A DNA stretch of 64,000 bases from Candidatus Omnitrophota bacterium (GTDB lineage Bacteria; Omnitrophota; Gorgyraeia; Zapsychrales; Zapsychraceae): assembly GCA_028280285.1 (NCBI GenBank), contig JANQMA010000017.1:993-64992 (forward strand). The letters are read 5' to 3'. The translations under genes and the position numbers were made by a program. The notes under the pieces are model-generated. The model worked only from the letters and a program-made list of their open reading frames with translations. It did not search any database and was not told where the DNA came from. Below are positions 1 through 62,913 of this stretch, piece after piece (positions within the stretch are counted from its first letter, which is position 1; each line of letters starts with the position of its first letter).

Positions 1-2983
1 TGCTATTGATAATTTTTTTGGGAGAGGCATGTGGTTTGCAGTCGGGTGATTGTGGAAGAGTGCCGGAACAGCTGAGATTAATGGTTTCGCGTAAAAGCAT
101 TGAGGGATCAATTTTTATATTTTTTGATTTTGAAACGATGACATCATTGATTTTCGGGGCAGCCTGAAAATTATAATTTTTTTCAAAGTCCATCCAGCCG
201 TTGACACCGATATTGATGATATCACTAAACAGTTCGCCATCACTTGTAATAAGTCGTCCGTTGGCCAGAAAGAAGTTTGCCTGCGCGTCGGTAAAATGGG
301 CTTCTTTATAGTAAGGGATAACTTGACCTAAATAACCGTTTGTAACGGCAAGGTAGCCTTTGCCTTCGATGTCGCCGCGTCTTTTATATGGACCGAATCC
401 GTCAAAATAAAAGGTGAGCTGTCCGCTTAAATGCGGATGTTTTACAAGATTTTTGGCCTTGCGGTATTCCGCTAAATCAAGATTAGTTATTTTTCCATTG
501 AGTTTAAACGGCAGATCCGGGTGGGCTGCTTCAAAATTTGATAATAATACAATGGAACCTTTATAAAGCGAAGCAGTTAATTCCACTTGCGATTTATTGC
601 CTTTTTCCTGAGCGTATCCTAGATCAACAAAAATAAACGGCAAATCGTAAATTGAGAGTTCATCTGATTGAATGGCCGCCGTGATATTCCAGTTTTTCCA
701 ATCTTTAAGGGCTCCTGCCATAGAGGCCTTGATGCGCGCCTTGCCGCTTAACTTAAGATCTTTCATATGTTCTGCTATAGGTGTGATTTTGGCCAGATCG
801 GTTGTGTCCAATTGGATTTGACCGTCGAGGTTTATATTCGGATCGCGTAAATCTTTGGTTGATAAGCCTTTGGCCGTAAAGTGTGATTCATAAAAATGGC
901 CGGCAAGTCTTTGGATTTTAATATTATCTTTATGAAATTCCAGATCAGTAGCGGCTTTAAATATTGGGGAATCGAGTGTGCTTGTCAGTGTTGGTGTTTC
1001 GCCGTTTTGGAATGTGGCATTGAGTTGGTAGCGCTGGAAGTTATGATCTGTTGTTAAATTTTCGATCAGTAAACCCGATTTATCAAATGTAATTTTTCCA
1101 TTTAATTTTTCAAAAGGGTTTTTAAAAGAGGGAAGTGTCAGTGTGGCATATTTCGGTTCGAGTGTGACTTTTATGGTTGCATCTTTATAAGATTTCAGCC
1201 GGCCGATAAAATTCACACTTGCCTCGCCGACGCCATTGATCGATAGATTATCTATATTGTTTAAAACCGGCGCATATGGTTTTGCCATGGCCAAGGCTTG
1301 GGTCAAATTTAATTCTTTCGTCGATATATTAGCTTTTATATTTGGATTTTTAAAATCATTAAGATCACCATAAATGTTCAATCGCGTATTTTGTGTGATT
1401 AAGGACAGGTTTTTGGTGGTTAATTTATCGTTGGTGATACTTATCTCTCCATCAATATCGCTGATGCTCTCAACAATAGCGACGCCGTTTATAGAAGAAT
1501 TATTGGGCTTAATTTCTCCTTCATAGCTCAGGCTTTTGCCATAAGTAACTTGGCCATTTATCATCGGGCTTCCAGTTAATGTTAACTCCTCCGTCAGCTT
1601 GGCGGTAATATCAGATGCTTTAAGTGCGGCGGCTACACTCAAGCCGGTTCTACCATAGGAGATGTTAAGATTGTCAGAAGAAATGTCACCTGTAAGTACG
1701 GATTGTGCTTTATTCATTAATGTGGTGTTGTGCGAAACAAACTGGCTATTGGCTGTCACACCGCTTTTCTTCATTTCCAGATTAAGTTTATTCAGTGTTA
1801 GATCGCCGGTGTATTGCATCTGATCGTAGGTCATATCGCTTCGGTCGAGTTTGTAGTCGCCGGTTATGCTATAAGTATTTTTATCTTTGAGAAAAGATAA
1901 ATTCGTTGCGTATAGATTCGTTGTGATACGGTTATTTTCCGACGGGGTAAAGATAAGATTTTTAACAATGAGATTATTAGAAGAAACTTTGACAGTTTCT
2001 TTATTTACGGTGACTTCAGATAAAGTGCCTTTGATGTCTCCTGTCAGCCGGTTCATACCTTGCTCTGCATAATTAAATTTTTTTAAATCGATTAAAGCCT
2101 TGGCGGATATACCATTTGCATTTATGCGCAAATCAATACCGCTTATATTCAATGCGCTGCTTATAAATGAATCTTTGATTAGCGCAGTCAATTCATCGGT
2201 TATGAGTGAACCTTTTAGATCCAACTCTTTGTTTTTATAAACAAATGTAATGGCGGCCTCACGAATAAGTGCGTTTTCTAAAACGGGGGCCGACGTTGAT
2301 TTTAAATATTGCATATATTGATCGATCAAAATGTTTTTGATGTTGAGATTTCCTTCTACTATATGTGTTGCCAAATCATAACTTCCCGTTAGCTTAAGAG
2401 AAGAGCCTTTTTGAGATGTGAGTGTGTCTCCATCGAATGTAATTTTTTTATTGAGTGACAAAGATATTTCCAGATTCAAATCACTCAAGGTTTCGGTTAT
2501 TTCATTATAGTGATCAGTGAAAGTTATTTTCCCGTTTTTGATGATCAGTTTTTTAAGGATAACTGAATATTGTTTTTCTCCGCTTGGGCGTTTCAGGTGT
2601 TCAACCAAGTCGGAAAAGTTGAATGTCATATCTTCATGATAGACGATGGGAATAACAGGCCCGTTAATGTGTATGGTGGGGATGATAATGGTCTTAGTCT
2701 TGATCACATCGGCAAAGATAATATTGAAAGATAGATGGGGAATAACAAATTCCGGCACGTTTTCATCATCTTTTTTATGGAGAAAGATGTTATGAACGGC
2801 AAAACCTTTAAGAAGATCAAAGTCGATTTTCTCGACTGAGACCTTACGTCCGAGTTGTGTGCCGGCGGCCTCTTCAATGTAGGCTTTTACTTTAACAGGA
2901 AGGAAAATCTTGTTTACGTAAAAGTAGGCGATGGCGCCTAACATTATGATAGCCAACAAGATAAAGAAAATCCGACGCTTCAT
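1..2983 (-). CDS. AsmA-family/DUF748-like envelope assembly protein (partial; C-terminus runs off the window start)
   Basis: Minus-strand ORF from ATG at 2983-2981 (MKRRIFFILLAIIMLGAIAYFYVNKIFLPVKVKAY..., N-terminal signal-anchor), with an in-frame TGA 5 codons upstream. No complete ORF is listed in 1-1886 on either strand, consistent with one long ORF running off the edge. The product is repetitive beta-rich sequence typical of AsmA/TamB-like proteins. The family assignment is from motif-level resemblance only. Confidence 0.5.
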   Translation of the reverse strand, partial: MKRRIFFILLAIIMLGAIAYFYVNKIFLPVKVKAYIEEAAGTQLGRKVSVEKIDFDLLKGFAVHNIFLHKKDDENVPEFVIPHLSFNIIFADVIKTKTIIIPTIHINGPVIPIVYHEDMTFNFSDLVEHLKRPSGEKQYSVILKKLIIKNGKITFTDHYNEITETLSDLNLEISLSLNKKITFDGDTLTSQKGSSLKLTGSYDLATHIVEGNLNIKNILIDQYMQYLKSTSAPVLENALIREAAITFVYKNKELDLKGSLITDELTALIKDSFISSALNISGIDLRINANGISAKALIDLKKFNYAEQGMNRLTGDIKGTLSEVTVNKETVKVSSNNLIVKNLIFTPSENNRITTNLYATNLSFLKDKNTYSITGDYKLDRSDMTYDQMQYTGDLTLNKLNLEMKKSGVTANSQFVSHNTTLMNKAQSVLTGDISSDNLNISYGRTGLSVAAALKASDITAKLTEELTLTGSPMINGQVTYGKSLSYEGEIKPNNSSINGVAIVESISDIDGEISITNDKLTTKNLSLITQNTRLNIYGDLNDFKNPNIKANISTKELNLTQALAMAKPYAPVLNNIDNLSINGVGEASVNFIGRLKSYKDATIKVTLEPKYATLTLPSFKNPFEKLNGKITFDKSGLLIENLTTDHNFQRYQLNATFQNGETPTLTSTLDSPIFKAATDLEFHKDNIKIQRLAGHFYESHFTAKGLSTKDLRDPNINLDGQIQLDTTDLAKITPIAEHMKDLKLSGKARIKASMAGALKDWKNWNITAAIQSDELSIYDLPFIFVDLGYAQEKGNKSQVELTASLYKGSIVLLSNFEAAHPDLPFKLNGKITNLDLAEYRKAKNLVKHPHLSGQLTFYFDGFGPYKRRGDIEGKGYLAVTNGYLGQVIPYYKEAHFTDAQANFFLANGRLITSDGELFSDIINIGVNGWMDFEKNYNFQAAPKINDVIVSKSKNIKIDPSMLLRETINLSCSGTLPQSPDCKPHASPKKIINS

Positions 2984-26414: not shown

Positions 26415-26416
26415 AA

Positions 26417-28272: not shown

Positions 28273-28955
28273 GTTTATCCAGATCCACTAAAAAACCGGT
28301 TCCGGTGCTTTTTGAAAATCAGCATTTTATCGTCTTTAATAAACCCGCCAGGCTTCTTGTCATCCCGTCACCGACCGAGAAAAATAATACATTAGTTAAT
28401 ATTGTGAATCGTCAGTATGCACGTAATGATGGATCGGCCAAGCTTCATCCATGCCACCGGTTGGACAAAGACACATCCGGGGCTATTTTGTTTGCCAAGG
28501 GTAAGGCCAACCAAAAGGTGATGATGGAGGAGTTTAAAGACAGGGAAATTAAAAAAGTCTATGAGGCCTTTGTGCATGGACACCCTAAAAGAAAAAAGGC
28601 ATCGATCAGTAAGCCGATCAAGTCACTGGATCAGAAGAAATTTAAGCAAACGCGGGCCAAGCCGGCTTTAACGAATTATCAAGTGAAGAAAACCTGTGAA
28701 CACTTTAGTGTCGTCGAGGCAGAGCCTGTGACCGGACGTGCTAATCAAATACGTATTCATTTCAAAGATATCGGCCATCCGCTTGTGGGGGAGCGCAAAT
28801 ACGCCATTGCGCGGGATTATCCGGTCAAATTTAAACGTGTTGCGCTTCATGCCAGCCGTTTGGAGTTTATTGATCCACATTCGCAACAGCATGTTATTGT
28901 GGATGCTCCTCTGGCGGAAGATATGAGAGAATTTTTGGAAAAAAGTGGTCCGTGA
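28269..28955 (+). CDS. RluA-family pseudouridine synthase
   Basis: HRLDKDTSGAILFAK (catalytic Asp motif), TGRANQIRIHF and HPLVGERKYA. The last three codons and the TGA stop lie inside a GTGGTC-family palindromic element. Confidence 0.8.
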   Translation: MSLSRSTKKPVPVLFENQHFIVFNKPARLLVIPSPTEKNNTLVNIVNRQYARNDGSAKLHPCHRLDKDTSGAILFAKGKANQKVMMEEFKDREIKKVYEAFVHGHPKRKKASISKPIKSLDQKKFKQTRAKPALTNYQVKKTCEHFSVVEAEPVTGRANQIRIHFKDIGHPLVGERKYAIARDYPVKFKRVALHASRLEFIDPHSQQHVIVDAPLAEDMREFLEKSGP

Positions 28956-29012
28956 TCCGTGGTCAGTGGTCGTTTTTATGTTTGATCACAGAACACAGAC
29001 CACAGATCACTA
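28944..29012. repeat. GTGGTCYGTG-family palindromic element, copy 1 (overlaps rluA stop)
   Basis: Left arm GTGGTCCGTGATCCGTGGTCAGTGGTC, right arm GATCACAGAACACAGACCACAGATCAC. Confidence 0.85.
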
Positions 29013-29949: not shown

Positions 29950-31974
29950 ATGGATCAATTCAAACTAGTTTCAAAATTCAAACCTGTCACCGAACAGCTG
30001 GATGCGGTCGATAAGCTCGTTCAAAACATTAAGGGCGGCACAAAAGATCAGGTTCTCCTCGGGGTAACCGGGAGCGGTAAAACATTCACCCTCGCCAATG
30101 TGATTGAGAAGATCAACCGTCCGACGCTCGTTATAAGCCACAATAAAACCCTTGCCGCTCAACTCTATAGCGAATTTAAAGAATTCTTTCCCCATAATGC
30201 GGTTGAGTATTTCGTGAGTTATTACGACTATTATCAACCGGAAGCCTATGTTCCCCAAACCGATATTTATATCGAGAAGGATGCTTCGATCAATGACCGG
30301 CTGGACCGTCTGCGTCTTGCGTCAACCACATCGCTTATGACCAGACGTGATGTTATTATTGTGGCGAGCGTTTCTTGTATTTACAATCTTGGTTCGCCTG
30401 AAGATTATGCACAGTTTTTACTTTATTTGAATGTTGGTGATGAAATTGAGCGCGATCAGGTGCTGGAGAAGCTGGTCGACATACAGTATGAACGCAGCGA
30501 TATGGATTTTAGGCGCGGTTCTTTCCGCGTGCGTGGGGATGTGGTCGAGGTTTATCCGGCATACCGGCAGGACGGCCTTAGAATTGAATTTTTCGGGGAT
30601 GAGATTGAAAAGATCAAACAAATTCATCCGCTGACAGGTGATGTGATTGCCGAACTTGATAAAATTGCCGTGTATCCGGCGAAACATTTTATCATCGGTC
30701 ATGAGCGCATTGACGCGGCCATGGTTGAAATCGAAACAGAACTGAAAGAACAACTTAAAGTATTAAATAAAAAAGGCAAGCTCGCCGAGGCGCAAAGACT
30801 TGAGTCGCGCACGAAATACGATATGGAAATGATGAAAGAGATGGGCTATTGCAACGGGATTGAAAACTATTCACGTGTCTTATCCGGCCGCCCACCGGGG
30901 TCCAGGCCGTATTCGCTCATTGATTATTTCCCGGACGATTTTGTAACGCTGATTGATGAGTCGCATGTAACCGTTCCACAGGTTAACGGGATGTATAACG
31001 GCGACCGCGCGCGTAAAACAACGCTTGTTGATTATGGTTTCCGTCTGCCGTCGTGTTTGGATAATCGTCCGCTTAAATTTGCTGAATTTGAAAAATTAAT
31101 CAGTCAGACTATTTATGTCTCCGCTACACCCGGGCCTTATGAGCAGAAAAAAGGCAAAGGAAATCTGGTCGAGCAGATTATCCGTCCGACGGGGATTGTT
31201 GATCCGCCGATTGAAGTGCGCAAGACCGAAGGGCAAATCGATGATTTGATGAATGAAATCAAAAAGCGGGCCAAGGCCAATGAGCGTGTGCTGGTTACAA
31301 CGCTGACCAAACGAATGTCGGAAGATTTAACGGAGTATCTGCAGGATAACAGTATTAAGGTAAAATATTTGCATTCCGACATTGAAACCATTGATCGTAC
31401 GAAAATCCTGCAGGATCTGCGGCTTAAAAAATATGACTGCCTTGTCGGGGTTAACCTTTTGCGTGAAGGTTTGGATTTGCCGGAAGTCTCTCTTGTGGCG
31501 ATACTCGATGCGGATAAGCAAGGCTTTTTACGTTCGCAGACTTCACTCATTCAAACAGCCGGGCGCGCTGCGCGTAATGTCAACGGCATTGTTATTATGT
31601 ATGCCGATACGATAAGCCAAGCGATGAAAGATACGATGGCCGAGTGTGAGCGCCGGCGTAAGATCCAACTCGCGTTTAATAAAAAGCATAATGTCACACC
31701 GCAGACGATTAAGCGGGCTATCCGCCAGGGAATTGAAGTGTTGGCCGACGAGGTCGAAGAAGTGGTGCTTGATGCGGCCGGCCAGGACAAAGAAGAGTTT
31801 GCTTTTGCCAATTCAATTGCCGCACTTGAACGGGAAATGGAAAATGCGGCGCGCAATTTACAATTTGAGAAAGCCGCCAAGTTTCGTGATAGAATAAAAG
31901 CATTACAGGAAAGCCTCGGGGAGCCGTTGGCCGAGCCGAGCGTGCGTAGGCGAAGAAAGAAATCTAAAAAGTGA
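29950..31974 (+). CDS. uvrB: excinuclease ABC subunit B
   Basis: Walker [10 protein letters not shown], helicase motifs, the UvrB beta-hairpin region and a C-terminal UVR domain ([27 protein letters not shown]). The stop codon lies inside a palindromic element. Confidence 0.95.
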
Positions 31975-32030
31975 TCAGTGGTCTGTGATCACAAATATTA
32001 ACTGACCACAGAACACAGACAACAGACCAC
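31969..32030. repeat. GTGGTCYGTG-family palindromic element, copy 2 (contains the uvrB stop codon)
   Basis: GTGATCAGTGGTCTGTGATCAC ... GACCACAGAACACAGACAACAGACCAC. Confidence 0.85.
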
Positions 32031-35011: not shown

Positions 35012-35083
35012 TGGTGGTCTGTGTTCTGTGGTCTGTGTTCAGTTAAATGAACGACTGATCACAGATCACGGACCACAGATCAC
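35012..35083. repeat. GTGGTCYGTG-family palindromic element, copy 3 (intergenic, after groEL)
   Basis: GGTGGTCTGTGTTCTGTGGTCTGTGTTC ... GATCACAGATCACGGACCACAGATCAC. Confidence 0.85.
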
Positions 35084-38519: not shown

Positions 38520-41500
38520 GTGAAACGCACTCACTGGACATATAGATGCATTGCACTTGTCGTAAGCTGTTTATTTACAGTTACTTCGATAAATCCCGTC
38601 TATGCCCAGATGCAACCTACCCAGGCCATTGCTCCTAAACCATTGCCTTTAAATGTGTTAAGTCAACCCTATGAACCGATTTTGATCAAAGGCCTTAAGG
38701 TCAATCAGACCAATCCATTTGAGATGGAGTTTATTGTAAGTGATCCGTGGTCCGTGGTCCGTGGTCAGCGGAATACTGATCACAGACCACAGAGCACAGA
38801 CCACCTAGAGCAGGAGTCTACTCAATTAATTAAATACTTCCTTGCCGCTTTAACCACTCCCGAGCAAGACATGTGGGTCAACCTATCCCCGTATGAGAAG
38901 AATCGGATTATTCCAGAGTCATTTGGTCGGACAGAAATGGGACGGGAGCTGCTTGTACAGGACTATCTTTTAAAACAGGTTACAGCATCATTGCTTCATC
39001 CGGATGGGGAGTATGGACAAGAGTTTTGGAGTAAAATAGCAACCCAAACATCGGAGGACATACCATTAGAATTATTCAATAAGGTCTGGATCATGCCGGA
39101 TAAAGCGGTGGTGTATGAGAATGAAGGGATAGCGTATGTGGTAGAGGCGAGTCTTAAGGTTATGTTGGAGGAAGATTACCTTGCGCAGCAAAAGAGTGGT
39201 CCGTGGTCCGTGGTCAGTGATCTGTCAAAAAATACGACCACAGATCACAGAACACAGACCACACAAATCATTCGTGAAACAATCATTCCCGCTATCGAAA
39301 CCGAGGTCAACAATAGCAAGAATTTCGCCAAGCTCCGCCAGATCTATCACAGCCTCATCCTGGCGACATGGTACAAGAAAAAGATGCAAAACGCGATTTT
39401 AACCCAAGTCTATGCCGATCAAAACAAGACTAATGGTGTAAGCCACAATGATCCTAAAGCAGCTGAAAAAATCTGGCAAGAGTACACCAAGACATTTAAA
39501 GAAGGGGCGTATAACTTTATCAAAGAAGAATACGATCCACAGACTCAGCAAATCGTTCCACGGAAGTATTTCAGCGGGGGGATGGCGATGGAGGTTGTGC
39601 TATCAGAACCGGCAGCGCTTACATCACAACAACAAGAGACTATTCCCGACAACGCCTACCTCGTCCGTGTTGCGTTAAACGAATTGACTCCCGATTCTGA
39701 TAGCGCGGCAATGGTTAAGAAAAAATCAGCGGATGATTTTAAATATAATGTCAATATAAGGACCCCCAAATTACAGGATCAACTCCCAGGGTTAGCAAAA
39801 AAACGGGAACAGACAAAGAAGGCACTTATTGGTTATTTCAATCAAATGATACATCATAATCCATTTGAAATGCCGAAATTTAATGTGAATTATAATCGAA
39901 TCATGCATTTACTACGACATATGATAGGGTTTGATGCTATTGGATTCTCATTTTCTGAACAAGATCCTGATGGCTTTATTACAAAAGCTGCGGTTTCTAA
40001 TGTGCTTATCCCTTTAATTGAACAAACAAAATTTCCTTTGTCTGTTGACCGTATGACACAATTTGTATTAGAGGCAAATTTAGATAATGAACGTCAGTTT
40101 AAATATATCGAAGCGCTTAATGATTTTAAAGTTTTTGCTACTTCTTATTCGGAAGGCGCCGAAAACGCAGCGTTGACAGCGCCCGCTCCCGACCCCGCCG
40201 TGATGACGCAAGAGGAACAACTTTCTATCGATCCGGCATCACTTGCTGAGTTAGCATTGGCTATGACTGAAAAGGATGTTCAAGATATCGCTGAAGTAGC
40301 CCGGTTGATAAAACAGAACTCCGATCATTATGCAAAAATATTGCTCAAAGAATATAACCAAACCAAAGACCAATTCAAAAATCGAGAAGAAATAATAAAG
40401 ATTGACGCTGTTGTAGACGATCCGACAATCCAGAAATTAATAAAAATATTTAAACGGATAAGCCGTAAAACAGGGAAAGAAAACAGCCGTAATGTTTCGC
40501 GTAGTTTAATGGGCTTAATTTATTTCTATAAATATATAACATATTTATATAAGCCCAAATATCAAATGGATGTTATAAGTGACATATCATTAAATATACT
40601 TTTGGGGGATATAATTAGGGAAAGCAATACTAAGAGAGGCCTTAAATCTTCCACCATTCCTATAGAAGATCAAATGCGCAATGTTGTTTTAGATTTTGCC
40701 GATAATTTAGGCAATTTGGTTGGGCGGATCAATGCACTGCCAAAAGCGAACACTACAGAGTTTGCACAAGTGTGGGCCTCTATGATTAATGAGGATAATT
40801 TTACCAGGGCAGATCTTTATCAGAACATAAAATCTTTTGGCAGGGTTTTAGAAGCGCGACGCGGGCGTTTTTTAACATTCTTAAGAGCAGACCGCAGCTT
40901 AACACGTGAAGCAAAAGAAACGTTGATTCTAAAAGCGCTTGCAATGAATCAAGAAGGGAAGGATCCAAAGGCAATTGTGGATGAATTAATGCAAGTGTGG
41001 ATTCCTCAATTTAAACGCAGTGAAGCAATATATGGTGTGCTAAGGATGACCGGCTGGGAATCAGAAATTCATAGATACCAATGGGGTGAATATGCAAAAT
41101 ATGCCCCTTTTCCTGTTCGGGAAATCACCAATGTCTACCGGGATATTGTTGGTATGCATTTAGATCCTCATATTTCCTCACATGATTGGACAGAGTATGT
41201 CGGACGTCCGGCACTCTCCTGGTTTGTTCAGTGGAAAAAAATAGAAGCCATGACTCAATTGAGTTTTATACCACTTGAAGATCCGGATGGTAATTTGATT
41301 TACAATGATTTGCAGGTTAATGGGGTTATCCCCGAGGAAATTTTAAAACTTGTTTATAAGGACGTTCATCCGCTGGCAACTATTTCCGGTACAGAAGATA
41401 AAAAGTGGAGGACGGAACGATGGCAGTTATATAAGGGCCATTACTATCCACCACTCGAAAGTGAATGGATAGAGTTTGTCAAAATGCTGCTCTATTCCTC

Positions 41501-44500
41501 CCAAAATCGCTTGAAGAGTAGACGAGGCAATCATGATGCTGTCATTGTAAAGCACGCTTATAATTTAAAAATAGGCAACCTTCGTTATGATCTGTATCAG
41601 TCAAATAATTTATGGAGGCTGCAGTATCCGTATGGAGATATATCTGATCTTCCATTTTCTGATTATGGGAAGAGCCTGCAGACAGCACAAGTTCTACATG
41701 GCTTGATGATGCATCATCTTGTTGTTAAGTATGGTCTCATTAATAATGCTCCGGCTGAACATCATGATTTTATTATGCGTTTATCTGATATGTGGCAAAG
41801 TTTTGAAAACGATCTTGAGGAAACTCTTCAAAACCGGGGTTATACGCGAGAGAATTTGCGTTTGCATGTTTTGTCGAATGCTCATGGAGTCGATGGTATT
41901 AAATATCTTAGGGAATTGTTTATTAATCGTATATTTCGATTACGTGAAAAGAAAGTTACTGAGGAAATACGTAATCTTGTCGAGTCGACCCTCACTGAAG
42001 TGGATGATGTTTTAACGGAAGAATATGAAAAGAGAAAGGACGTCGAAAACGCGGCATTGATTAAACAGCGTCCAGCGTTGAGCGTAGAGCGTATAGCGGA
42101 TAGTGATATTAATCTAACCGCTAAACGCCATCCGCTAGACACTAAAACCGACCCCGCCGCGATGGTGAAACAAAATTTGGCGAACATTGACCAAAATATT
42201 TATGAGGATATTGTAGACCATCTTCTATGGCATAAGCCAAATGTGATTGTAAAAGATCATTATCGCGATATTTTAGCGCGGTTTATTCACGATAATAGAA
42301 AAAAAGAAAAAAAATTCTGGTCTCGTGAGGGTAAAAAAATATTTTCCAAAGAGCAGGTGCGCACTTTATTGGAATCTTGGCCCGGAAATAATATGCAATA
42401 TAAAGCACATGTTAATTCTTCGGGGAATAGAGAAATATCAATCATATTGCATCAAAAAATTAAACCGACTTTTACTATTGATCTTACATTTAAGAGAGAC
42501 GGACAGGTTAAGCTAGGTAAACAGTTTAAATCGCATCAAAACTATATAGTGGATAGATTAGAAGAGAGTTATGGGATCGACCGTATTGAAGCCCGTGTGA
42601 TTGCACAAATAGCACGTCGTTATTGGTTTAAAAGTGTTTTTATCCCTATGCTGCGCGAGATGGAAATTGACCATCTGCATGGTAAAAAAATAGATGAAAA
42701 ATCAACATTTTTCGCAGAGATGGGTTTTAAAGACGGTGTTTTATCTGTCGACCCCGCCGCGATGGCGGAGCAGGAGCAAGAGTCCAAAAAAGATCAATCC
42801 GCTCCGGTGTCTTTCAATGTTGGCGATGAATTGAGGAGGATTTATCATAATACAACACGTCCTAAAATTTTCAAAGTAGAAAAATGGCCTGGGCAGGCTA
42901 TACAACTACGAATGGAAGAGGATCCTCTTCCACGAGATAAACCGCCTAATTCTATTACTGATGAGGATTTGACATATCGCATATACGCATCGGTCACACA
43001 TGGGAAATCCGCGTTCTACTATCCTGTAGCGATGCGTTCGGGTATTTTTTACAAAAATGATATTGTTGATTTAACAAAAGGCTGGCAAATTACTTATAAT
43101 TACCCGGCCGTCTATAAGCTTATTCAAAACTACCGAGATAAGAATGGATATGCAAGTTATTTGGAGGCGATTGATCATCTATTAGAAAACGATGAAGAAA
43201 CCCGTAAATATGAGAAACATTTAATTAACCAAATCATTTCTTTGTTTCCGATTTTGCAAATTTTTTATGGGTTTTCATCAGATGAGCAAGTGGATGAGTA
43301 TTTTAACCAGGCCCCTCAACAATTAGAAAATAAAGGTATTGCCTCGGCTTTACTTGAATATTTAGGAAGTTATTTACCGGTTGGAACAAAAGTCAAAATT
43401 ATCGGAGCGAATCGGCCGACCGTAGAAGCTCTTAATAAGGGAACGGTATTTGAAGATACATTGCTCGGGAAAATGTATACGCGTATCGGATTTAAAGTTT
43501 TATCTATTGAACAAAAAGACGGACAAAATCCAATTGTTGTTTTCCAGAAGACAAAAAATGTAAAACCACGCGCTAAGTGGAAAGATGTAACGAAGTTAGG
43601 AGGTCACGTTTTATCCGTAGAGAGCGGTGTCGTTTCTGATTCCGAAGGTGTCGAAAACGCTGCATTGAGCAAAGTTGTCCCTGACTCTGCCGTAATGGTC
43701 GGTTTGAAAACGGATCCAATAGAGTTATCCATGGTGGAAGAAAACTATATTAGACTTTTAATAGAAAATAATTACCAGAAACAAACTTTTCAGGTGATGA
43801 TTAACGATATTAAAGATCCTGATCGAATTCACCAGCTTATGACGGAAGTCTTAAAGCGAAAAGGGTATTATCGACCAGAGATCAATAATTTTAATGATAG
43901 AAGTAGGTTTCCTTTGGAGGTTCCAGGTGATAGAGGGCTTATTTTAACGTCTATGGGTGATGGTAATGAAGATATTTTAAGATTTACGGTTGAAAGTAAT
44001 AATGTGATTATGTGGAAGCGTCCTAAAATTGGTGGTTCAAAATTGGGTGTTGCACCGGTTGCCTATGTTTGGTGGGCAACTCATCCAGAAATTAGAAAAG
44101 AGTTGTCCGGGAAGCCAATGAAGGGGTATAAGGCAGATTATAGGCAGGGGAGGGCTCTTGAAAAAGCATGGATTTTTAAAATTGCCTTACCCGATGGAGC
44201 TAAAGATTGGAACAAATATGATTATTCAGGTTCTTTTCCTGTTTGGCAAAAAGATTTAAAACAAAACGTCGAAAACGCGGCGTTGACAGAGCCTGCTCCC
44301 GATCCCGCCGCGATGGCGAAGCAGGAATTTGAACGGACTGATTCAGCGGTAGTTGCAGATCAGGAAGGACAATATATTATCCCTGGTTTTGATATTATAA
44401 AATATTCGGTTGATTCTTATGATCAAGAAAATCGAGAAGCAAGAGAAAGTCGAGAGGCAAGATATGAATTGAATGATTGGCAAGAAGGTGTTGTATTGGC

Positions 44501-46034
44501 TCAAATTGAAAATATCATTATGCAGGCACAAGAAATTGGCGATATAGATATGGAAAATTATTTAATATATGTTTTGGAACAAGGAGTTAAAAAATTTATT
44601 AAATCTGATACGTCAGAATATATTCAGGCAGTAGGTAAAACAAAAATGGACGGTCGTGAAGTTGTTTCAATAGCCGAGGAATTACTTAATCAATCAAGAT
44701 CTGATGATGACGTGAAATTATTGGTTAAATTGGTTTTAATCCATGAATTTAATCATATTCTTGATCACAAATTAAATCGTTTATCATTAAACATTATGAA
44801 ATTAGTTGACATAAATCTTATAGAACGTTCGGCCTTGATTCGTTCAGCTGCATATTTTGATGGATTTATAAAGAAAGAAGGCGATGGATTAAATGATTTT
44901 ATTGTCATGTACCGATTTGATGGCGATAAAATTATGGCTTATACTTCAACAAATTCGGAAATATCTTCTGTGAAATCAGATTATCAAAAGCCACCTGTTA
45001 TCATGCCTGGGGAAAATCGGTATACATATTATGATCAATTAGCTAGAAAAGGAAATATTGTAACGTCTGAAGAAACTGGGTCTATATATTATTATGAGTC
45101 ATATAGAAAAGGGGGTGATGACACTACACTGGAAAAAAATGGTGTCGTTTCTGAAAAAAATGGTGTCGTTTCTGATTCCGAAGGTGTTGAAAACGCTACG
45201 TTGGCAAAGGGCGCTTCCGACAATGCCGCGATGGCGGATAATTCAGATAGTGATGAGGTTTTTATAGAACAAGATAATTATACTTTTAAATATCGACGAC
45301 CAACACAAATAGCAATGGCTTCGGTAACAGTGATGAATCCCAAAGGAGTTCATGGTGGTCCTTCACAATATATAACGGGTTTGGTTAAATCGTATCAAGA
45401 TATTTGGCCACTAACGATTAAAATGAAATTTAAGGGTGAATACATTGATACGAATGATGTGAAAAATATTATGGAATTGAAAATAAAACAAGGTGATGTA
45501 TTGGAAATAGAGATGTTTGGGAGTGAAGAAGGGGCTTTAAAGTTTGTGCAAAGTATGGCCGCAAGGGTAGCTGATTCTGAAACACGTAAAAAGTATGAAG
45601 CGAAAATCACAAGACAGCCATTAAATGAGGATGACGCAGCATTGACTAAAGGTGGTATAGACTTCGACGCCTCCAAAATGGATCTAGAGATTCGGACGGA
45701 ACAAAGCCAGATGCTCGATGCTCGCCCGCCCCGCCGCTTCGCGGCGGAAGCTGCGGGCCGGGGATGCTCGATGCTAGAGGACGAAGAGTTGCGAAAAGAG
45801 TGCCTTACTAACACCTCTAGTGGTATACAGTTTAAGTTTACTCCCCAACAGATTGAGGGGATGCGCCAGAATATTACGGGCTTTAATCCGGTGATTATTA
45901 ATATCCAGCCGATTGTGAACTTGCCGTTGTTTTTGGGGTTGAATGATATTGAGGACGCGCCGGATGAGACAGAAACGGTAGAGGCAGATGGTCAGGATCT
46001 TTTAGCAAGAATGGAGGAGTATTCATATAACTAG
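38520..46034 (+). CDS. giant secreted protein (2504 aa) of unknown function, with repeated ENAAL..PAPDPAAM modules and an HEFNH motif
   Basis: Uninterrupted 7.5-kb ORF in an AT-rich genome. Signal peptide MKRTHWTYRCIALVVSCLFTVTSINPVYA-Q. HExxH at about nt 44745 (LVLIHEFNHILDH). Contains three in-frame palindromic-element insertions and 6-7 GC-rich repeat modules. Confidence 0.8.
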   Translation: MKRTHWTYRCIALVVSCLFTVTSINPVYAQMQPTQAIAPKPLPLNVLSQPYEPILIKGLKVNQTNPFEMEFIVSDPWSVVRGQRNTDHRPQSTDHLEQESTQLIKYFLAALTTPEQDMWVNLSPYEKNRIIPESFGRTEMGRELLVQDYLLKQVTASLLHPDGEYGQEFWSKIATQTSEDIPLELFNKVWIMPDKAVVYENEGIAYVVEASLKVMLEEDYLAQQKSGPWSVVSDLSKNTTTDHRTQTTQIIRETIIPAIETEVNNSKNFAKLRQIYHSLILATWYKKKMQNAILTQVYADQNKTNGVSHNDPKAAEKIWQEYTKTFKEGAYNFIKEEYDPQTQQIVPRKYFSGGMAMEVVLSEPAALTSQQQETIPDNAYLVRVALNELTPDSDSAAMVKKKSADDFKYNVNIRTPKLQDQLPGLAKKREQTKKALIGYFNQMIHHNPFEMPKFNVNYNRIMHLLRHMIGFDAIGFSFSEQDPDGFITKAAVSNVLIPLIEQTKFPLSVDRMTQFVLEANLDNERQFKYIEALNDFKVFATSYSEGAENAALTAPAPDPAVMTQEEQLSIDPASLAELALAMTEKDVQDIAEVARLIKQNSDHYAKILLKEYNQTKDQFKNREEIIKIDAVVDDPTIQKLIKIFKRISRKTGKENSRNVSRSLMGLIYFYKYITYLYKPKYQMDVISDISLNILLGDIIRESNTKRGLKSSTIPIEDQMRNVVLDFADNLGNLVGRINALPKANTTEFAQVWASMINEDNFTRADLYQNIKSFGRVLEARRGRFLTFLRADRSLTREAKETLILKALAMNQEGKDPKAIVDELMQVWIPQFKRSEAIYGVLRMTGWESEIHRYQWGEYAKYAPFPVREITNVYRDIVGMHLDPHISSHDWTEYVGRPALSWFVQWKKIEAMTQLSFIPLEDPDGNLIYNDLQVNGVIPEEILKLVYKDVHPLATISGTEDKKWRTERWQLYKGHYYPPLESEWIEFVKMLLYSSQNRLKSRRGNHDAVIVKHAYNLKIGNLRYDLYQSNNLWRLQYPYGDISDLPFSDYGKSLQTAQVLHGLMMHHLVVKYGLINNAPAEHHDFIMRLSDMWQSFENDLEETLQNRGYTRENLRLHVLSNAHGVDGIKYLRELFINRIFRLREKKVTEEIRNLVESTLTEVDDVLTEEYEKRKDVENAALIKQRPALSVERIADSDINLTAKRHPLDTKTDPAAMVKQNLANIDQNIYEDIVDHLLWHKPNVIVKDHYRDILARFIHDNRKKEKKFWSREGKKIFSKEQVRTLLESWPGNNMQYKAHVNSSGNREISIILHQKIKPTFTIDLTFKRDGQVKLGKQFKSHQNYIVDRLEESYGIDRIEARVIAQIARRYWFKSVFIPMLREMEIDHLHGKKIDEKSTFFAEMGFKDGVLSVDPAAMAEQEQESKKDQSAPVSFNVGDELRRIYHNTTRPKIFKVEKWPGQAIQLRMEEDPLPRDKPPNSITDEDLTYRIYASVTHGKSAFYYPVAMRSGIFYKNDIVDLTKGWQITYNYPAVYKLIQNYRDKNGYASYLEAIDHLLENDEETRKYEKHLINQIISLFPILQIFYGFSSDEQVDEYFNQAPQQLENKGIASALLEYLGSYLPVGTKVKIIGANRPTVEALNKGTVFEDTLLGKMYTRIGFKVLSIEQKDGQNPIVVFQKTKNVKPRAKWKDVTKLGGHVLSVESGVVSDSEGVENAALSKVVPDSAVMVGLKTDPIELSMVEENYIRLLIENNYQKQTFQVMINDIKDPDRIHQLMTEVLKRKGYYRPEINNFNDRSRFPLEVPGDRGLILTSMGDGNEDILRFTVESNNVIMWKRPKIGGSKLGVAPVAYVWWATHPEIRKELSGKPMKGYKADYRQGRALEKAWIFKIALPDGAKDWNKYDYSGSFPVWQKDLKQNVENAALTEPAPDPAAMAKQEFERTDSAVVADQEGQYIIPGFDIIKYSVDSYDQENREARESREARYELNDWQEGVVLAQIENIIMQAQEIGDIDMENYLIYVLEQGVKKFIKSDTSEYIQAVGKTKMDGREVVSIAEELLNQSRSDDDVKLLVKLVLIHEFNHILDHKLNRLSLNIMKLVDINLIERSALIRSAAYFDGFIKKEGDGLNDFIVMYRFDGDKIMAYTSTNSEISSVKSDYQKPPVIMPGENRYTYYDQLARKGNIVTSEETGSIYYYESYRKGGDDTTLEKNGVVSEKNGVVSDSEGVENATLAKGASDNAAMADNSDSDEVFIEQDNYTFKYRRPTQIAMASVTVMNPKGVHGGPSQYITGLVKSYQDIWPLTIKMKFKGEYIDTNDVKNIMELKIKQGDVLEIEMFGSEEGALKFVQSMAARVADSETRKKYEAKITRQPLNEDDAALTKGGIDFDASKMDLEIRTEQSQMLDARPPRRFAAEAAGRGCSMLEDEELRKECLTNTSSGIQFKFTPQQIEGMRQNITGFNPVIINIQPIVNLPLFLGLNDIEDAPDETETVEADGQDLLARMEEYSYN
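38741..38804. repeat. GTGGTCYGTG-family element, copy 4, in frame inside the giant ORF
   Basis: GATCCGTGGTCCGTGGTCCGTGGTCAGCGGAATACTGATCACAGACCACAGAGCACAGACCAC, translated as DPWSVVRGQRNTDHRPQSTDH. Confidence 0.85.
39196..39263. repeat. GTGGTCYGTG-family element, copy 5, in frame inside the giant ORF
   Basis: GTGGTCCGTGGTCCGTGGTCAGTGATCTG...GACCACAGATCACAGAACACAGACCAC, translated as SGPWSVVSDLSKNTTTDHRTQTTQ. Confidence 0.85.
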
Positions 46035-55456: not shown

Positions 55457-55513
55457 CAGTTGCTCGTTGCTGGTTGCTCGTTGCTAGCAACTAGCATCAA
55501 GCAACTAGCAACT
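55457..55513. repeat. GTTGCTCGTTGCT / AGCAACTAGCAAC palindromic element after the LysM gene
   Basis: GCAGTTGCTCGTTGCTGGTTGCTCGTTGCTAGCAACTAGCATCAAGCAACTAGCAACT. Confidence 0.7.
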
Positions 55514-56471: not shown

Positions 56472-57900
56472 GACCACCAAATCACATGAGCAAATAACAA
56501 GATACGTGACAGCCACCTTTTTAGGAATTTTGTTTGTTGCTTTTTGTTATTTGATGAACTACTCATTAATACTTCCGTTGTTGGTCATACTGATGGGCGC
56601 TCATTTGCGTCTTTCGCGTAATATCAATTCGCGTATGCTGCTTAATCTTGGCTTATTATTCATGGTCATTGTGGCACTCGCGTATTTCATACAATATAAA
56701 TTTCCCAACACAACATTTGTGATCCCTGTTGCCAGTATTGGTATGTTAACGATGCTTTTATTTAATAGCTATCGATTAACATTGATTATGTCATTTGTGA
56801 CGAGTGTGTTTGTCGGCAATATGCTCGATGGTGGTTTTGGCATGATGATTATGTTTTTTTCTGGCGCTATGGTCGGTGGATATGCCGTTTATGAAGCACG
56901 GACACGAGGGCAGTTATTTACAGCGGGGCTTTTTGCCAGTGCAATACAAACTATTGCTTTAATTTTGATGTACCCTGACTCACAGAAAATTCTAGCCGGG
57001 GAGTTTATGAGTGAATATCTTTATCCGACTGTTGCCAATGGTTTTCTTTCTGCGCTTTTTGTTGTTGCGACACTAAAAATATTTGAGTCAATTTGTGGCG
57101 TTTTGACGAACTTCAGCTTGCTGGAATTATCCGACTTTAATAATCCGCTTCTTAAACGTATGATTATGGAGGCGCCGGGCACCTATCATCACAGTTTGGT
57201 TGTCAGTAACCTAGCCGAGGCTGCGTCGAATGAGATCGGGGCGAATGGACTTTTGACGCGTGTAGGTGCGTACTATCATGATATCGGCAAAATGTCGAAG
57301 CCTGAATACTTCACGGAAAATCAATTGATGGGCGGCAATAAACATGATGCGATTGAACCATCGATGAGCCGATTGGTTATTATTAATCATGTGAAAGAAG
57401 GAATTGAACTTGCTAAGAAGCATAAGTTAAATCAGGCTATCATTGATTTTATTCCGCAGCATCACGGGACATCGCTTATTTTCTATTTTCATCAAAAGGC
57501 GATTGAAGGGGCCGGTGATGTGCGTGAAGTTGATGAGGAAAATTACCGTTATCCCGGACCTAAACCGCAGACACGTGAGACCGCGATCACACTTTTGGCG
57601 GATTCGGTGGAAGGGGCCACGCGCGCGCTTGATGAGCATACACCAAGCAGTATTCAAGAGACAGTGCAGAAGGTTATCAATAATAAATTTATCGACGGGC
57701 AGCTGGATGAATGTCCACTGACACTCAAGGAAATTGACCGGATTGCTAAAACATTTACCCGCATCTTAAGCGCGATGTATCACGGACGCGTTAAATATCC
57801 TGAAAAGAAAAAAGAGAATGGACATTCAAATAGAAAATCTTCAGAAAAAGATAATTCTGAAACCAATTCCGATCAAGAACCTGGTCCAAACGGTTCTTAA
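56443..57900 (+). CDS. 7TM receptor with intracellular HD hydrolase (YqfF/PgpH-like)
   Basis: Multiple TM helices followed by the HD domain (HSLVVSNLAE...YYHDIGK...QHHGT). Confidence 0.85.
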   Translation: MRLMNMTTVETTKSHEQITRYVTATFLGILFVAFCYLMNYSLILPLLVILMGAHLRLSRNINSRMLLNLGLLFMVIVALAYFIQYKFPNTTFVIPVASIGMLTMLLFNSYRLTLIMSFVTSVFVGNMLDGGFGMMIMFFSGAMVGGYAVYEARTRGQLFTAGLFASAIQTIALILMYPDSQKILAGEFMSEYLYPTVANGFLSALFVVATLKIFESICGVLTNFSLLELSDFNNPLLKRMIMEAPGTYHHSLVVSNLAEAASNEIGANGLLTRVGAYYHDIGKMSKPEYFTENQLMGGNKHDAIEPSMSRLVIINHVKEGIELAKKHKLNQAIIDFIPQHHGTSLIFYFHQKAIEGAGDVREVDEENYRYPGPKPQTRETAITLLADSVEGATRALDEHTPSSIQETVQKVINNKFIDGQLDECPLTLKEIDRIAKTFTRILSAMYHGRVKYPEKKKENGHSNRKSSEKDNSETNSDQEPGPNGS

Positions 57901-58318
57901 AGGCGAAGGGATAAAAAGCGCTGCGCTTGATCTTGCCTTCGTTACCGCACAAAAGATACGTTCGATTAATAGCAAATATTTAAATCATCATTATGTGACG
58001 GATGTTATTACGTTTGATTACGGTGGTCCGTGGTCTGTGGTCCGTGGTCGGAGTCCTAAAATTAATACACAGAAAACAGACCACAGAAAACAGACCACTT
58101 TAAATGGTGAAATTATTATTTCCACCGATGCGGTCAGGCAGAATGCGCGCAAGTTTAAAACCAGTGAGGCATATGAGCTTGCGCTTTATCTCGTGCATGG
58201 CATTTTGCATTTGTTGGGGTATGATGATAAGACAGTGAAAGATAAGGCGGTCATGCGTGAGGCGGAGGAGAGGGTAATGGGGTATTTGGGTAAAAAAATA
58301 GATAAGGTAAACGCATGA
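57818..58318 (+). CDS. ybeY: rRNA maturation endoribonuclease YbeY carrying an in-frame palindromic-element insertion of about 25 aa
   Basis: Zinc-binding HGILHLLGYDD motif. Insert GGPWSVVRGRSPKINTQKTDHRKQTTLNG lies between VITFDY and EIIISTDAV. Confidence 0.85.
   Translation: MDIQIENLQKKIILKPIPIKNLVQTVLKGEGIKSAALDLAFVTAQKIRSINSKYLNHHYVTDVITFDYGGPWSVVRGRSPKINTQKTDHRKQTTLNGEIIISTDAVRQNARKFKTSEAYELALYLVHGILHLLGYDDKTVKDKAVMREAEERVMGYLGKKIDKVNA
58023..58098. repeat. GTGGTCYGTG-family element, copy 6, in frame inside ybeY
   Basis: GGTGGTCCGTGGTCTGTGGTCCGTGGTCGGAG...CACAGAAAACAGACCACAGAAAACAGACCAC. Confidence 0.85.
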
Positions 58319-59598: not shown

Positions 59599-59606
59599 AA
59601 TTATCA

Positions 59607-59672
59607 CGTAGGGGCGGCTCGTGAGCCGCCCTAAAATGTCGATGAATTAGGGTCGCTCACGAGCGCCCCCTA
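59607..59672. repeat. GC-rich palindromic element after dtd (GTAGGGGCGG family)
   Basis: GTAGGGGCGGCTCGTGAGCCGCCCTA ... TAGGGTCGCTCACGAGCGCCCCCTAC. Related hairpins GGGCCGACACATTGGTCGGCCC and GTAGGGGCGGAGCAATGTCTCCGCCC lie at 59064-59135. Confidence 0.7.
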
Positions 59673-59683
59673 CAGGAATATTA

Positions 59684-62842: not shown

Positions 62843-62913
62843 GGTGGTCTGTGTTCCGTGTTCTGTGTTCTGTATCGTTCCAAGATGACCACTGACCACA
62901 GATCACAGACCAC
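62843..62913. repeat. GTGGTCYGTG-family palindromic element, copy 7 (intergenic, after the CMD gene)
   Basis: GGTGGTCTGTGTTCCGTGTTCTGTGTTCTG ... GACCACTGACCACAGATCACAGACCAC. Confidence 0.85.

What the first reader, a model, noticed from the sequence alone, without database searches (positions are those of the whole stretch)
45709..45776. GC-rich palindromic in-frame insertion flanked by an ATGCTCGATGCT direct repeat near the 3' end of the giant ORF
The sequence is ATGCTCGATGCTCG-CCCGCCCCGCCGCTTCGCGGCGGAAGCTGCGGGCCGGGG-ATGCTCGATGCTAG. The core is over 80% GC in an AT-rich gene. It contains the palindrome CCGCCGC-TTC-GCGGCGG and is bracketed by a 12-bp direct repeat that looks like a target-site duplication. 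It is translated as ...MLDARPPRRFAAEAAGRGCSMLED.... This is a different element family from the GTGGTC hairpins. The giant gene thus appears to be a sink for several kinds of frame-neutral insertions.
Basis: seen in the sequence. Interest (0 to 1): 0.6.

Follow-up and report, generated by a model that had tools for sequence, protein, structure and literature searches.

The report
Tiny in-frame palindromic repeat element
A 42-base, GC-rich hairpin sequence that also turns up in other Omnitrophota genomes has landed, without breaking the reading frame, in a variable loop of a giant protein gene; it is a small selfish repeat of the kind known from Rickettsia, and the apparent target-site duplication around it is most likely a pre-existing run of 7-base repeats.

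Summary
An 87% GC, 39-nt core at 45725-45763 is bracketed by ATGCTCGATGCT and read through by a 2504-aa Omnitrophota giant ORF. It is a discrete repeat unit, not a one-off. The same 42 nt (40/42 identical, sharp boundaries, unrelated flanks) lies in frame in a UvrD-like helicase gene of another Omnitrophota metagenome contig and gives the identical peptide RPPRRFAAEAAGRG. The closest giant-protein relative carries the reverse-strand reading (PPARGFSREAAGRA) at a different site. All three copies sit in variable linkers that homologues lack.

The family is rare: one copy in 64 kb, one strict-pattern hit in all JGI metagenomes, and two hits among 1.84 billion protein representatives.

The target-site-duplication reading is not supported. 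The repeat period is 53 nt, which is not divisible by 3. The helicase copy has no flanking repeat. The flanks are four heptamers (GATGCTC x3, GATGCTA) split by a 39-nt net insertion. The insert-free relative aligns without gaps to the reconstructed run.

The same protein loop holds other in-frame hairpin families in other giants, and a different hairpin family sits in frame in ybeY. Best reading: a new, low-copy, RPE-like in-frame palindromic element. How it moves is unknown.

The parts
45723..45764 (+). 42-nt (14-codon) GC-rich imperfect-palindrome repeat unit, CGCCCGCCCCGCCGCTTCGCGGCGGAAGCTGCGGGCCGGGGA, translated as RPPRRFAAEAAGRG
   Evidence: Boundaries were defined by comparison with L119: 40/42 identical, while the 60-nt flanks match at 16/60 and 17/60. 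blastn gives 95.2% identity, E = 1.4e-12, and this is the only similarity between the two sequences. nhmmer scores it at 32 bits. The peptide is identical in both hosts.
45724..45762 (+). 39-nt (13-codon) net insertion if the pre-insertion state was an intact run of four heptamers. The 3 boundary bases (C at 45723, GA at 45763-45764) can be assigned either to the element or to the heptamers.
   Evidence: Removing these 39 nt keeps the ORF open (2491 aa...QMLDARCSMLED...). The result aligns without gaps to P0002 ...PLLVASCSSLED....
45732..45748 (+). Inner perfect palindrome CCGCCGC-TTC-GCGGCGG. It forms the apical stem on the + strand in the window copy and carries one mismatch in the L119 copy.
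   Evidence: Sequence; DNA folds.
45710..45723 (+). Left half of the heptamer run (GATGCTC GATGCTC).
   Evidence: The motif GWTGCTNGWTGCT occurs only here, at 45763 and in the 55458 hairpin.
45763..45776 (+). Right half of the heptamer run (GATGCTC GATGCTA). This is the right 'direct repeat', read as (G)CSML. The Cys is the first of a conserved Cys...Cys pair.
45648..46031 (+). Conserved C-terminal module of the giant protein (KGGIDF ... IQFKF ... GFNPVIINIQP ... LPLFLG). The insert lies in its variable spacer.
   Evidence: The module is present in 115/120 relatives. The spacer is 31-34 aa in 93/112 relatives and 71 aa here, the longest.
38520..46034 (+). Host gene: a 2504-aa multidomain giant protein of the Omnitrophota family (signal-peptide-like N-terminus, conserved N-terminal domain, variable cargo including an HPr-like domain, conserved C-terminal module)
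55458..55513 (.). Intergenic (GTTGCTN)4/(NAGCAAC)4 hairpin. It belongs to the same heptamer family as the flanks of the insert and is context for the origin of the 'direct repeat'.
   Evidence: Its arm TTGCTCGTTGCTAGC translates to LLVAS, the peptide found in P0002's spacer.

Best explanation
The feature is one copy of a rare, lineage-restricted family of 42-nt GC-rich imperfect palindromes found in Omnitrophota. On the reverse strand it forms a 14-bp stem with two conserved mismatches and a 6-nt loop. It behaves like a miniature selfish repeat. It appears at unrelated places in different genomes and in either orientation. The copies that persist are those whose length (14 codons) and stop-free reading let the host ORF read through, and that lie in variable, length-tolerant linkers of proteins, where they add a 14-residue Arg/Pro/Ala/Gly-rich peptide.

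In this window it landed in the middle of a pre-existing run of four heptamers (GATGCTC x3, GATGCTA) in the spacer of the giant protein's conserved C-terminal module. The two halves of that run now look like a 12-13-bp direct repeat. They are not a target-site duplication.

Shown: multiple copies, sharp boundaries, in-frame read-through, absence from homologues, and a permissive site. Inferred: that it is an insertion (from phylogenetic distribution), and that the heptamer run pre-dates it (protein-level comparison only). Not shown: how it moves. The hairpin structure and the absence of a duplication fit best with a single-strand hairpin route (HUH/IS200-IS605/RAYT-like) or with template switching at hairpins, but this is a guess.
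For: (1) A second DNA copy lies in L119, a JGI Omnitrophota contig of 46% GC. It is 40/42 identical, the flanks match at random level, and 14 of the 16 positions that the search pattern did not fix are identical.
(2) That copy sits inside a UvrD-like helicase ORF and encodes the identical RPPRRFAAEAAGRG. The closest helicase homologues (59-60% identity) lack it, and it lies in a variable linker.
(3) Four independent assemblies of the helicase contig encode the same protein.
(4) P0002, the closest giant-protein relative, carries PPARGFSREAAGRA at aa 93-106. This is the reverse-strand reading (13/14 to L119's reverse complement, 11/14 to ours) and it sits at a different site. A profile search gives it E = 8e-9.
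(5) None of the other 118 giant-protein relatives or 119 helicase relatives has it.
(6) The spacer that hosts it is 31-34 aa in 93/112 family members and 71 aa here. Other long spacers contain other hairpin families, verified at the DNA level in L124 and L125.
(7) A different hairpin family is read in frame in ybeY and twice in the giant ORF.
(8) On the heptamer run: the motif occurs only at the two flanks and in the 55458 hairpin. Removing 39 nt keeps the ORF open, and the result aligns without gaps to P0002. P0002's LLVASCSSL is compatible with 21/27 nt identity, a level reached by 21 of 366,525 control 9-mers.
(9) The L119 copy has no flanking repeat.
Against: Only three copies are known, and one of them only as a peptide. 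No transposase or other mobilising gene lies in the window, and no movement has been observed. The claim that the heptamer run is ancestral rests on a protein alignment in a variable spacer between proteins about 60% identical there; P0002's DNA could not be obtained. An exact 11-13-nt repeat directly abutting both ends of the unit is also what a target-site duplication looks like. Both nucleotide differences between the two DNA copies are synonymous in the frame used, and all three copies are read in the same codon phase. Neither observation is significant with n = 3, but both leave room for selection on the peptide. The structure model is too poor to confirm a surface loop.
Confidence: 0.62

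Rival explanations
1. A MITE-like element transposed into the gene and generated an 11-13-bp target-site duplication. A second small indel then restored the reading frame.
For: The exact repeat TGCTCGATGCT directly abuts both ends of the 42-nt unit as defined independently from L119. A 12-mer repeated exactly by chance is very unlikely.
Against: 42 + 11 = 53 nt is not a multiple of 3, yet the highly conserved C-terminal module downstream is in frame, so an extra compensating indel is needed within about 20 nt. The L119 copy has no flanking repeat of 6 bp or more. Each repeat copy is an internal tandem of a 7-mer (about 2e-4 by chance for a random target), and that motif belongs to another repeat family in this genome. 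The insert-free relative P0002 has counterparts of both copies.
Confidence: 0.12
2. This is not a mobile element in its own right. The same 42-nt hairpin was copied repeatedly as filler or templated-patch DNA during break repair or template switching. The common donor would be a plasmid, a phage, a larger mobile element or a structured RNA gene shared by these Omnitrophota.
For: Copy number is very low: one per 64 kb, a single strict-pattern hit in all JGI metagenomes and none in IMG/VR. The 86% GC unit sits in 42-46% GC hosts, which suggests a foreign or structurally constrained source. No transposase is nearby.
Against: The two DNA copies have identical end points to the base. That is expected for a defined unit and not for random captured fragments. 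No Rfam family matches. No donor has been identified.
Confidence: 0.15
3. The peptide, not the DNA, is what matters: a 14-residue basic Pro/Arg/Ala/Gly motif acquired and kept for a function in the protein.
For: Both nucleotide differences between the window and L119 copies are synonymous. All three copies are read in the phase that keeps TTC and GAA as codons.
Against: The hosts are unrelated proteins: a giant secreted-type protein and a cytoplasmic helicase. One copy is in the opposite orientation and gives a different peptide. The peptide is found in only 2 of 1.84 billion cluster representatives. The insertion sites are variable linkers that also collect unrelated hairpin repeats. With n = 3 the phase and synonymy statistics are not significant.
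Confidence: 0.05
4. Assembly chimera or sequencing artefact in the MAG.
For: The source is a metagenome assembly, and read support could not be inspected. The insert is short and compositionally alien.
Against: The insert keeps a 2504-aa ORF and its conserved C-terminal module in frame. The same 42 nt occurs in frame in a different gene that was assembled independently four times by different pipelines, and as a peptide in a third assembly. A 12-nt repeat is too short to cause de Bruijn mis-joins.
Confidence: 0.03

Closest known systems
Rickettsia palindromic elements (RPEs; Ogata et al. 2000 Science 290:347; 2002 Genome Res 12:808, as summarised in PMC10969869)
   Same: Short palindromic selfish repeats found inside unrelated protein-coding genes. 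They are inserted in frame and read through as an extra peptide. They occur in several families in one lineage and are tolerated at structurally permissive sites.
   Different: RPEs are about 100-150 bp, AT-rich like their hosts, and present in tens of copies per genome. This unit is 42 nt and 86% GC in a 42% GC genome. It is very low-copy as far as can be seen, has no sequence relation to RPEs, and belongs to a different phylum (Omnitrophota).
REP / REPIN elements mobilised by RAYT (IS200/IS605-like HUH) transposases
   Same: An imperfect palindrome 20-40 nt long with conserved mismatches and no target-site duplication. The same window holds a GTAG-headed, GC-rich REP-like doublet at 59599-59682.
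   Different: REPs are extragenic, usually number tens to hundreds per genome, and carry a conserved GT[AG]G head. This unit has no GTAG, all known copies are intragenic, and no RAYT gene is in the window.
Bacterial MITEs (Correia, ERIC, Nezha, Anabaena MITEs)
   Same: Small non-autonomous repeats that can create in-frame fusions with host ORFs.
   Different: MITEs have terminal inverted repeats related to a parent IS and make target-site duplications. Here the duplication test fails, no parent IS is known, and the size is well below typical MITEs.
Other Omnitrophota in-frame hairpin repeats seen here (GTGGTC-heptamer hairpins; the ATTCCCGC...GCGGGAAT 'MDSRFRGND' family)
   Same: The same behaviour in the same genomes and even in the same protein loop.
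   Different: Their sequences are unrelated. The GTGGTC family is abundant (7 copies in 64 kb, mostly at gene 3' ends), whereas this one is single-copy in the window.

Membership tests
RPE-like in-frame palindromic repeat elements (functional class) | The same sequence is repeated at unrelated loci | tested here: met
   There are three copies in three contexts: the window, L119 (40/42 nt) and the P0002 peptide. The number is small.
RPE-like in-frame palindromic repeat elements (functional class) | Palindromic; able to form a hairpin | tested here: met
   The stem is 4+5+5 bp with two conserved mismatches and a 6-nt loop. Reverse-strand DNA fold: -18.6 and -19.3 kcal/mol, z = -2.9 and -2.6.
RPE-like in-frame palindromic repeat elements (functional class) | Lies inside ORFs, preserves the frame, and is absent from homologues | tested here: met
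   14 codons with read-through in the giant ORF and in the helicase. Absent in 118 + 119 relatives. Translation itself was not demonstrated.
Rickettsia RPE families proper | Sequence homology to RPE-1..10, about 100-150 bp, Rickettsiales host | tested here: not met
   42 nt, 86% GC, Omnitrophota host. No direct sequence comparison with RPE consensus sequences was run.
MITE | Target-site duplication of fixed length flanking each copy | tested here: not met
   L119 has no flanking repeat of 6 bp or more. The repeat in the window is explained by a heptamer run, and 53 nt is out of frame.
MITE | Terminal inverted repeats matching a parent IS in the genome | not testable with these tools
   The whole unit is one hairpin. 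No IS or transposase lies in the window, and the rest of the genome was not available.
REP/REPIN (RAYT-associated) | Conserved 5' GT[AG]G head | tested here: not met
   The unit starts CGCCCG and ends CCGGGGA, with no GTAG on either strand.
REP/REPIN (RAYT-associated) | High copy number, extragenic location | tested here: not met
   One copy in 64 kb. All three known copies are intragenic. There is one strict-pattern hit in JGI metagenomes, although an exact pattern would miss diverged copies.
REP/REPIN (RAYT-associated) | A cognate RAYT/Y1 transposase gene in the genome | not testable with these tools
   None among the window's ORFs of 150 aa or more that were scanned.
CRISPR repeat | Match to a CRISPR-DR model; an array with spacers | tested here: not met
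   The best Rfam hit is CRISPR-DR20 at 14.2 bits against a gathering score of 42, E = 3.8. There is a single copy and no array.
Intrinsic terminator | GC-rich hairpin followed by a T-run, downstream of a gene | tested here: not met
   It lies inside an ORF and is followed by ATGCTCGATGCTAGAGG. The generic terminator hairpins picked up score 15.6 bits or less against the element model, versus 32 bits for true copies.

The most novel reading that the evidence does not exclude
Omnitrophota carry a set of codon-compatible selfish hairpins. These would be several unrelated families of short palindromes, including this 42-nt GC-rich one. They would spread within and between genomes by a mechanism that makes no target duplication, and would systematically colonise permissive loops of proteins, from giant proteins to housekeeping enzymes such as YbeY and a UvrD-like helicase. 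They would then be a continuing source of loop-length and sequence variation in proteins. The near-identity of this unit (95%) between genomes whose GC content differs by 4-5 points would reflect recent horizontal spread.
Probability: 0.2. Interest if true: 0.65.

Novelty: new member of a known kind. Interest (0 to 1): 0.4.

Why it matters
In-frame palindromic selfish DNA has been regarded as almost peculiar to Rickettsia. Here a 42-nt hairpin recurs in frame in unrelated genes of different Omnitrophota. Other hairpin families share the same protein loops, and one sits in a housekeeping gene, ybeY. This suggests that the phenomenon also shapes proteins in a phylum of ultra-small, host-dependent bacteria.

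In practice, such inserts inflate and diversify the linkers of the giant proteins that are a hallmark of the phylum. They can be mistaken for target-site-duplicating transposons or for assembly errors, and they can mislead domain-boundary and homology analyses. The specific element is rare, so its individual importance is modest.

Tried and rejected
1. The genome-contig scan with CCCGCNGCTTCN{4,8}GAAGCNGCGGG was too permissive.

2. The look-up of encoding contigs for P0001, P0002 and P0003: not on record. The listing of cluster members gave no accession or organism name.

3. A concatenated six-frame peptide query against 5.8 billion proteins: nothing at E <= 10, because a 14-residue match cannot reach significance there. 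The frame and orientation distribution of further copies therefore remains unknown.

4. Viral contigs, strict pattern: 0 hits.

5. Rfam on the region: only noise. The idea that it is a fragment of a known structured RNA or a CRISPR repeat has no support, although a 42-nt rRNA fragment might escape detection.

6. RNA folding of the 91-nt region is not better than shuffles (z = -1.34), so hairpin stability alone is not evidence.

7. AlphaFold2 of the C-terminal module with 45 sequences: pLDDT 66, pTM 0.24. This is too poor to place the insert on a surface loop, and no fold search was attempted.

8. Programmed frameshifting was considered because the two repeat copies are read in different frames. 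It was rejected: there is no slippery site, and a single continuous frame reproduces the conserved C-terminal module.

9. Relatedness of the two host genomes could not be measured, because L119 and the window share no orthologous gene.
Full report
**Observation**

The 39-nt core (45725-45763) is 87% GC, in a window that averages about 42% GC. It is the longest short GC-rich island in the 64 kb. ATGCTCGATGCT occurs exactly twice in the window, on either side of the core. The core has no second copy in the window at up to 3 mismatches or by a sensitive nhmmer search. ORF 38520-46034 (2504 aa) reads through it as ...MLDARPPRRFAAEAAGRGCSMLED....

One thing was missed. The two repeat copies start 53 nt apart, which is not a multiple of three. 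They are therefore read in different frames (MLDA and CSML). Deleting 'element plus one repeat' would truncate the ORF at 2412 aa.

**Host and context**

The neighbours are housekeeping genes: uvrB, groEL, IMPDH, guaA, dnaE, hisS, an Asp/Asn-tRNA synthetase, a chemotaxis cluster, ybeY, recO and others. So this is a bacterial chromosome.

The giant protein has 2147 relatives. Those that carry names are Omnitrophota (Omnitrophica), and most share only the N-terminal 13-20% of the query. The family also shares a C-terminal module, KGGID(F/L) ... I-x-F ... GF-x-PVI ... LPLFLG, present in 115 of 120 relatives. The insert lies in the variable spacer of that module.

**It is a discrete repeat unit**

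The reverse complement of the core translates to SPARSFRREAAGRA. P0002, the closest relative, carries PPARGFSREAAGRA at residues 93-106, a different place in the protein. None of the other 118 relatives has anything similar.

A strict two-arm DNA pattern found nothing in IMG/VR. It found exactly one hit in the JGI metagenome collection: L119, a 6.4-kb contig of 46% GC. There the sequence lies inside a 1063-aa UvrD-like helicase ORF and is translated ...GQPVSL-RPPRRFAAEAAGRG-VPSTAG..., the identical 14-residue peptide.

At the DNA level the shared unit is exactly 42 nt (window 45723-45764) and 40/42 identical, while the 60-nt flanks match at the random level, 16/60 and 17/60. blastn finds no other similarity between the contig and the window (E = 1.4e-12). 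Of the 16 positions that the search pattern left free, 14 are identical, so this is not a pattern-forced chance match.

The named helicase homologues are almost all Omnitrophota. The closest (59-60% identity) lack the segment, which falls in a variable linker. The helicase contig was assembled independently four times (NCBI MAG GCA_975109715.1, ENA, JGI, Logan), and all four encode the same protein. That excludes an assembly artefact for that copy and makes one unlikely here.

P0002's peptide matches the reverse reading of the L119 variant (13/14) better than that of the window variant (11/14), even though P0002 is the window protein's closest relative. If this holds at the DNA level, the variants do not track host relatedness.

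**Rarity**

A profile of the three peptides was searched against 1.84 billion cluster representatives. It returned only P0001 and P0002 at E <= 0.001. Together with the single metagenome hit and the single copy in 64 kb, this points to a low-copy family restricted to a few lineages. There are two caveats. An exact 26-base pattern misses diverged copies. The only genome-collection scan was wasted on a pattern that was too loose.

**Structure of the unit**

On the reverse strand both DNA copies fold into a 4+5+5-bp stem with two single mismatches at the same positions and a 6-nt loop (-18.6 and -19.3 kcal/mol, z = -2.9 and -2.6). The forward strand is unremarkable, as is the 91-nt RNA context. 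No Rfam family matches. All six frames are open in the window variant. The L119 variant has one stop, in frame +2.

**The 'target-site duplication'**

Four observations argue against it.

- 42 + 11 = 53 nt would frameshift a conserved C-terminal module that is in fact in frame.
- The L119 copy has no flanking direct repeat of 6 bp or more.
- Each repeat copy is itself two tandem heptamers. The region reads GATGCTC-GATGCTC | 39 nt | GATGCTC-GATGCTA. The motif GWTGCTNGWTGCT occurs in the window only at these two flanks and in an intergenic (GTTGCTN)4/(NAGCAAC)4 hairpin at 55458-55513 (8 matches against about 1 expected).
- Removing the 39 nt between heptamers 2 and 3 (45724-45762) keeps the ORF open (2491 aa) and gives ...QMLDARCSMLED.... 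This aligns without a gap to P0002's ...PLLVASCSSLED.... P0002's LLVASCSSL is compatible with 21/27 nucleotide identity to the reconstructed run, a level reached by only 21 of 366,525 control 9-mers. The hairpin arm TTGCTCGTTGCTAGC itself translates to LLVAS.

The most economical reading is that a four-heptamer tract, probably a relic of that other repeat family, was already in the spacer and the GC-rich unit landed in its middle. Three boundary bases (C...GA) can be assigned either to the unit or to the heptamers, so the net gain is 39 nt or 42 nt. Both are in frame. This step rests on a protein-level comparison, because P0002's DNA was not obtainable.

**Why it is tolerated**

The spacer between GGIDx and GFxPVI is 31-34 residues in 93 of 112 family members. 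It is 71 residues here, the longest, and 62 in P0002. Other long spacers carry peptides such as MDSRFRGND, SPTGTFGNDK and GGEISAKGGPASG. For two of them the DNA shows true hairpins in the same loop: ATTCCCGC-TTTC-GCGGGAAT in L124 and ATCCCCGA-N9-TCGGGGAT in L125.

In the window the abundant (GTGGTCN)n/(NGACCAC)n hairpin family has seven copies, with 42 motif matches against 1.6 expected. Three of the copies sit just 3' of genes, two are in frame in the giant ORF, and one is in frame in ybeY (TFDY[GGPWSVVRGRSPKINTQKTDHRKQTT]LNGE). One helicase homologue (P0140) has ...HSREGGNPEF... in the same linker as L119's insert.

So palindromic repeats read through in permissive loops are a general feature of these genomes. 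The structure model of the C-terminal module was too poor to say more (pLDDT 66).

**Mechanism**

What is shown: a defined unit recurs at unrelated sites and in both orientations, is absent from homologues, preserves the frame, and sits in variable linkers.

What is inferred: survivorship. Only copies compatible with translation in tolerant loops persist.

What is unknown: how it moves. No transposase lies in the window. The hairpin with conserved mismatches and the lack of a duplication would suit a single-strand, HUH-type (IS200/IS605/RAYT-like) route or hairpin-associated template switching, but neither was tested.

**Rivals**

The rivals are scored in the Rival explanations section: a duplication-making MITE with a compensating indel, templated filler DNA from a common donor, selection on the peptide, and an assembly artefact.

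**Comparison with known systems**

Functionally the closest system is the Rickettsia palindromic elements, the textbook case of selfish palindromes inserted in frame in unrelated genes (PMC10969869). This unit is much shorter, is GC-rich in an AT-rich host, is low-copy, and comes from a different phylum. It is not a member of those families.

It fails two defining REP features (the GTAG head, and high extragenic copy number) and the MITE duplication test. Papers on Omnitrophota giant genes do not mention palindromes, hairpins or in-frame elements.

**Verdict**

This is a real feature: a new, rare member of the known class of in-frame palindromic selfish repeats. The target-site-duplication interpretation is not. 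Interest is moderate. The single element is minor, but the wider pattern of several hairpin families colonising protein loops in Omnitrophota deserves a systematic census.

Noticed in passing
window 28945-29010, 31971-32030, 35014-35083, 38740-38804, 39196-39262, 58023-58098, 62844-62913: An abundant family of hairpins whose arms are tandem heptamers, (GTGGTCN)3-4 ... (NGACCAC)3-4: 42 motif matches against 1.6 expected. Three copies lie immediately 3' of genes (a pseudouridine synthase, uvrB, groEL), where they look terminator- or REP-like. Two lie inside the giant ORF.
   Followed up: partly
window 57818-58318 (ybeY), hairpin at 58023-58098: The GTGGTC hairpin is read through in frame in the housekeeping endoribonuclease gene ybeY, as TFDY[GGPWSVVRGRSPKINTQKTDHRKQTT]LNGE. 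The Pfam match spans 136 residues for 116 profile positions. The reading (PWSVV...TDH) is the same as in the two giant-ORF copies.
   Followed up: partly
window 59599-59682: An intergenic, GC-rich, GTAG-headed REP-like inverted doublet (CACGTAGGGGCGGCTCGTGAGCCGCCC ... GGGTCGCTCACGAGCGCCCCCTAC) between the D-Tyr-tRNA deacylase and TatD genes. It resembles a REPIN, which hints at a RAYT-type system somewhere in the genome.
   Followed up: no
window 55458-55513: An intergenic hairpin with heptamer arms, (GTTGCTN)4/(NAGCAAC)4, centred on GCTAGC. It uses the same heptamer motif as the flanks of the 42-nt insert. In P0002, peptides matching both arms (LLVAS ... QQATSN) bracket the Cys...Cys segment of the C-terminal spacer.
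   Followed up: partly
window 38520-46034 (giant ORF) and relatives P0002-P0120: The family is modular: a conserved signal-peptide-like N-terminus plus an N-terminal domain of about 350 aa, then unrelated cargo domains, then a conserved C-terminal module. In this protein and in the nine relatives read in full, modules are separated by a recurring short motif ending in (D/N)-x-A-(A)-M, for example ENAALTxPAPDPAAM in this ORF. This suggests either fused former start codons or a processing site in a polyprotein. Only an HPr-like domain (aa 2268-2338) is recognised by Pfam.
   Followed up: no
L124 (gene 201-4364) and L125 (gene 301-6252), C-terminal spacer: Other Omnitrophota giant genes carry a different in-frame hairpin family in the same loop: ATTCCCGC-TTTC-GCGGGAAT or ATCCCCGA-N9-TCGGGGAT, followed by GACAATGGAAGA, read as MDSRFRGNDNGR or SPTKAFGDDNGR. 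L125 also shows a 21-nt tandem duplication (GGATGACAATG(G)AAG twice).
   Followed up: partly
P0140 (helicase homologue), linker aligned with L119 insert: The peptide ...LLCHSREGGNPEF... sits in the same variable linker of the UvrD-like helicase. It looks like the reverse reading of the GGGAAT-type hairpin family, so this linker may also be a recurrent landing site.
   Followed up: no
L119 2090-2121 (right after the 42-nt unit in gene orientation): The helicase is about 23 residues longer than its closest homologues at this linker, but the unit accounts for only 14. The extra VPSTAGRSN is encoded by GTCCCATCAACGGCGGGACGAAGC, which contains a small hairpin (GTCCC...GGGAC) and a GC-rich stretch of unknown origin.
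   Followed up: no
window 27014-27062: A near-perfect hairpin with 23-nt arms (96% complementary) and a 3-nt loop, just downstream of the chromate-transporter-like ORF (26372-26941). It was not assigned to any of the repeat families above.
   Followed up: no
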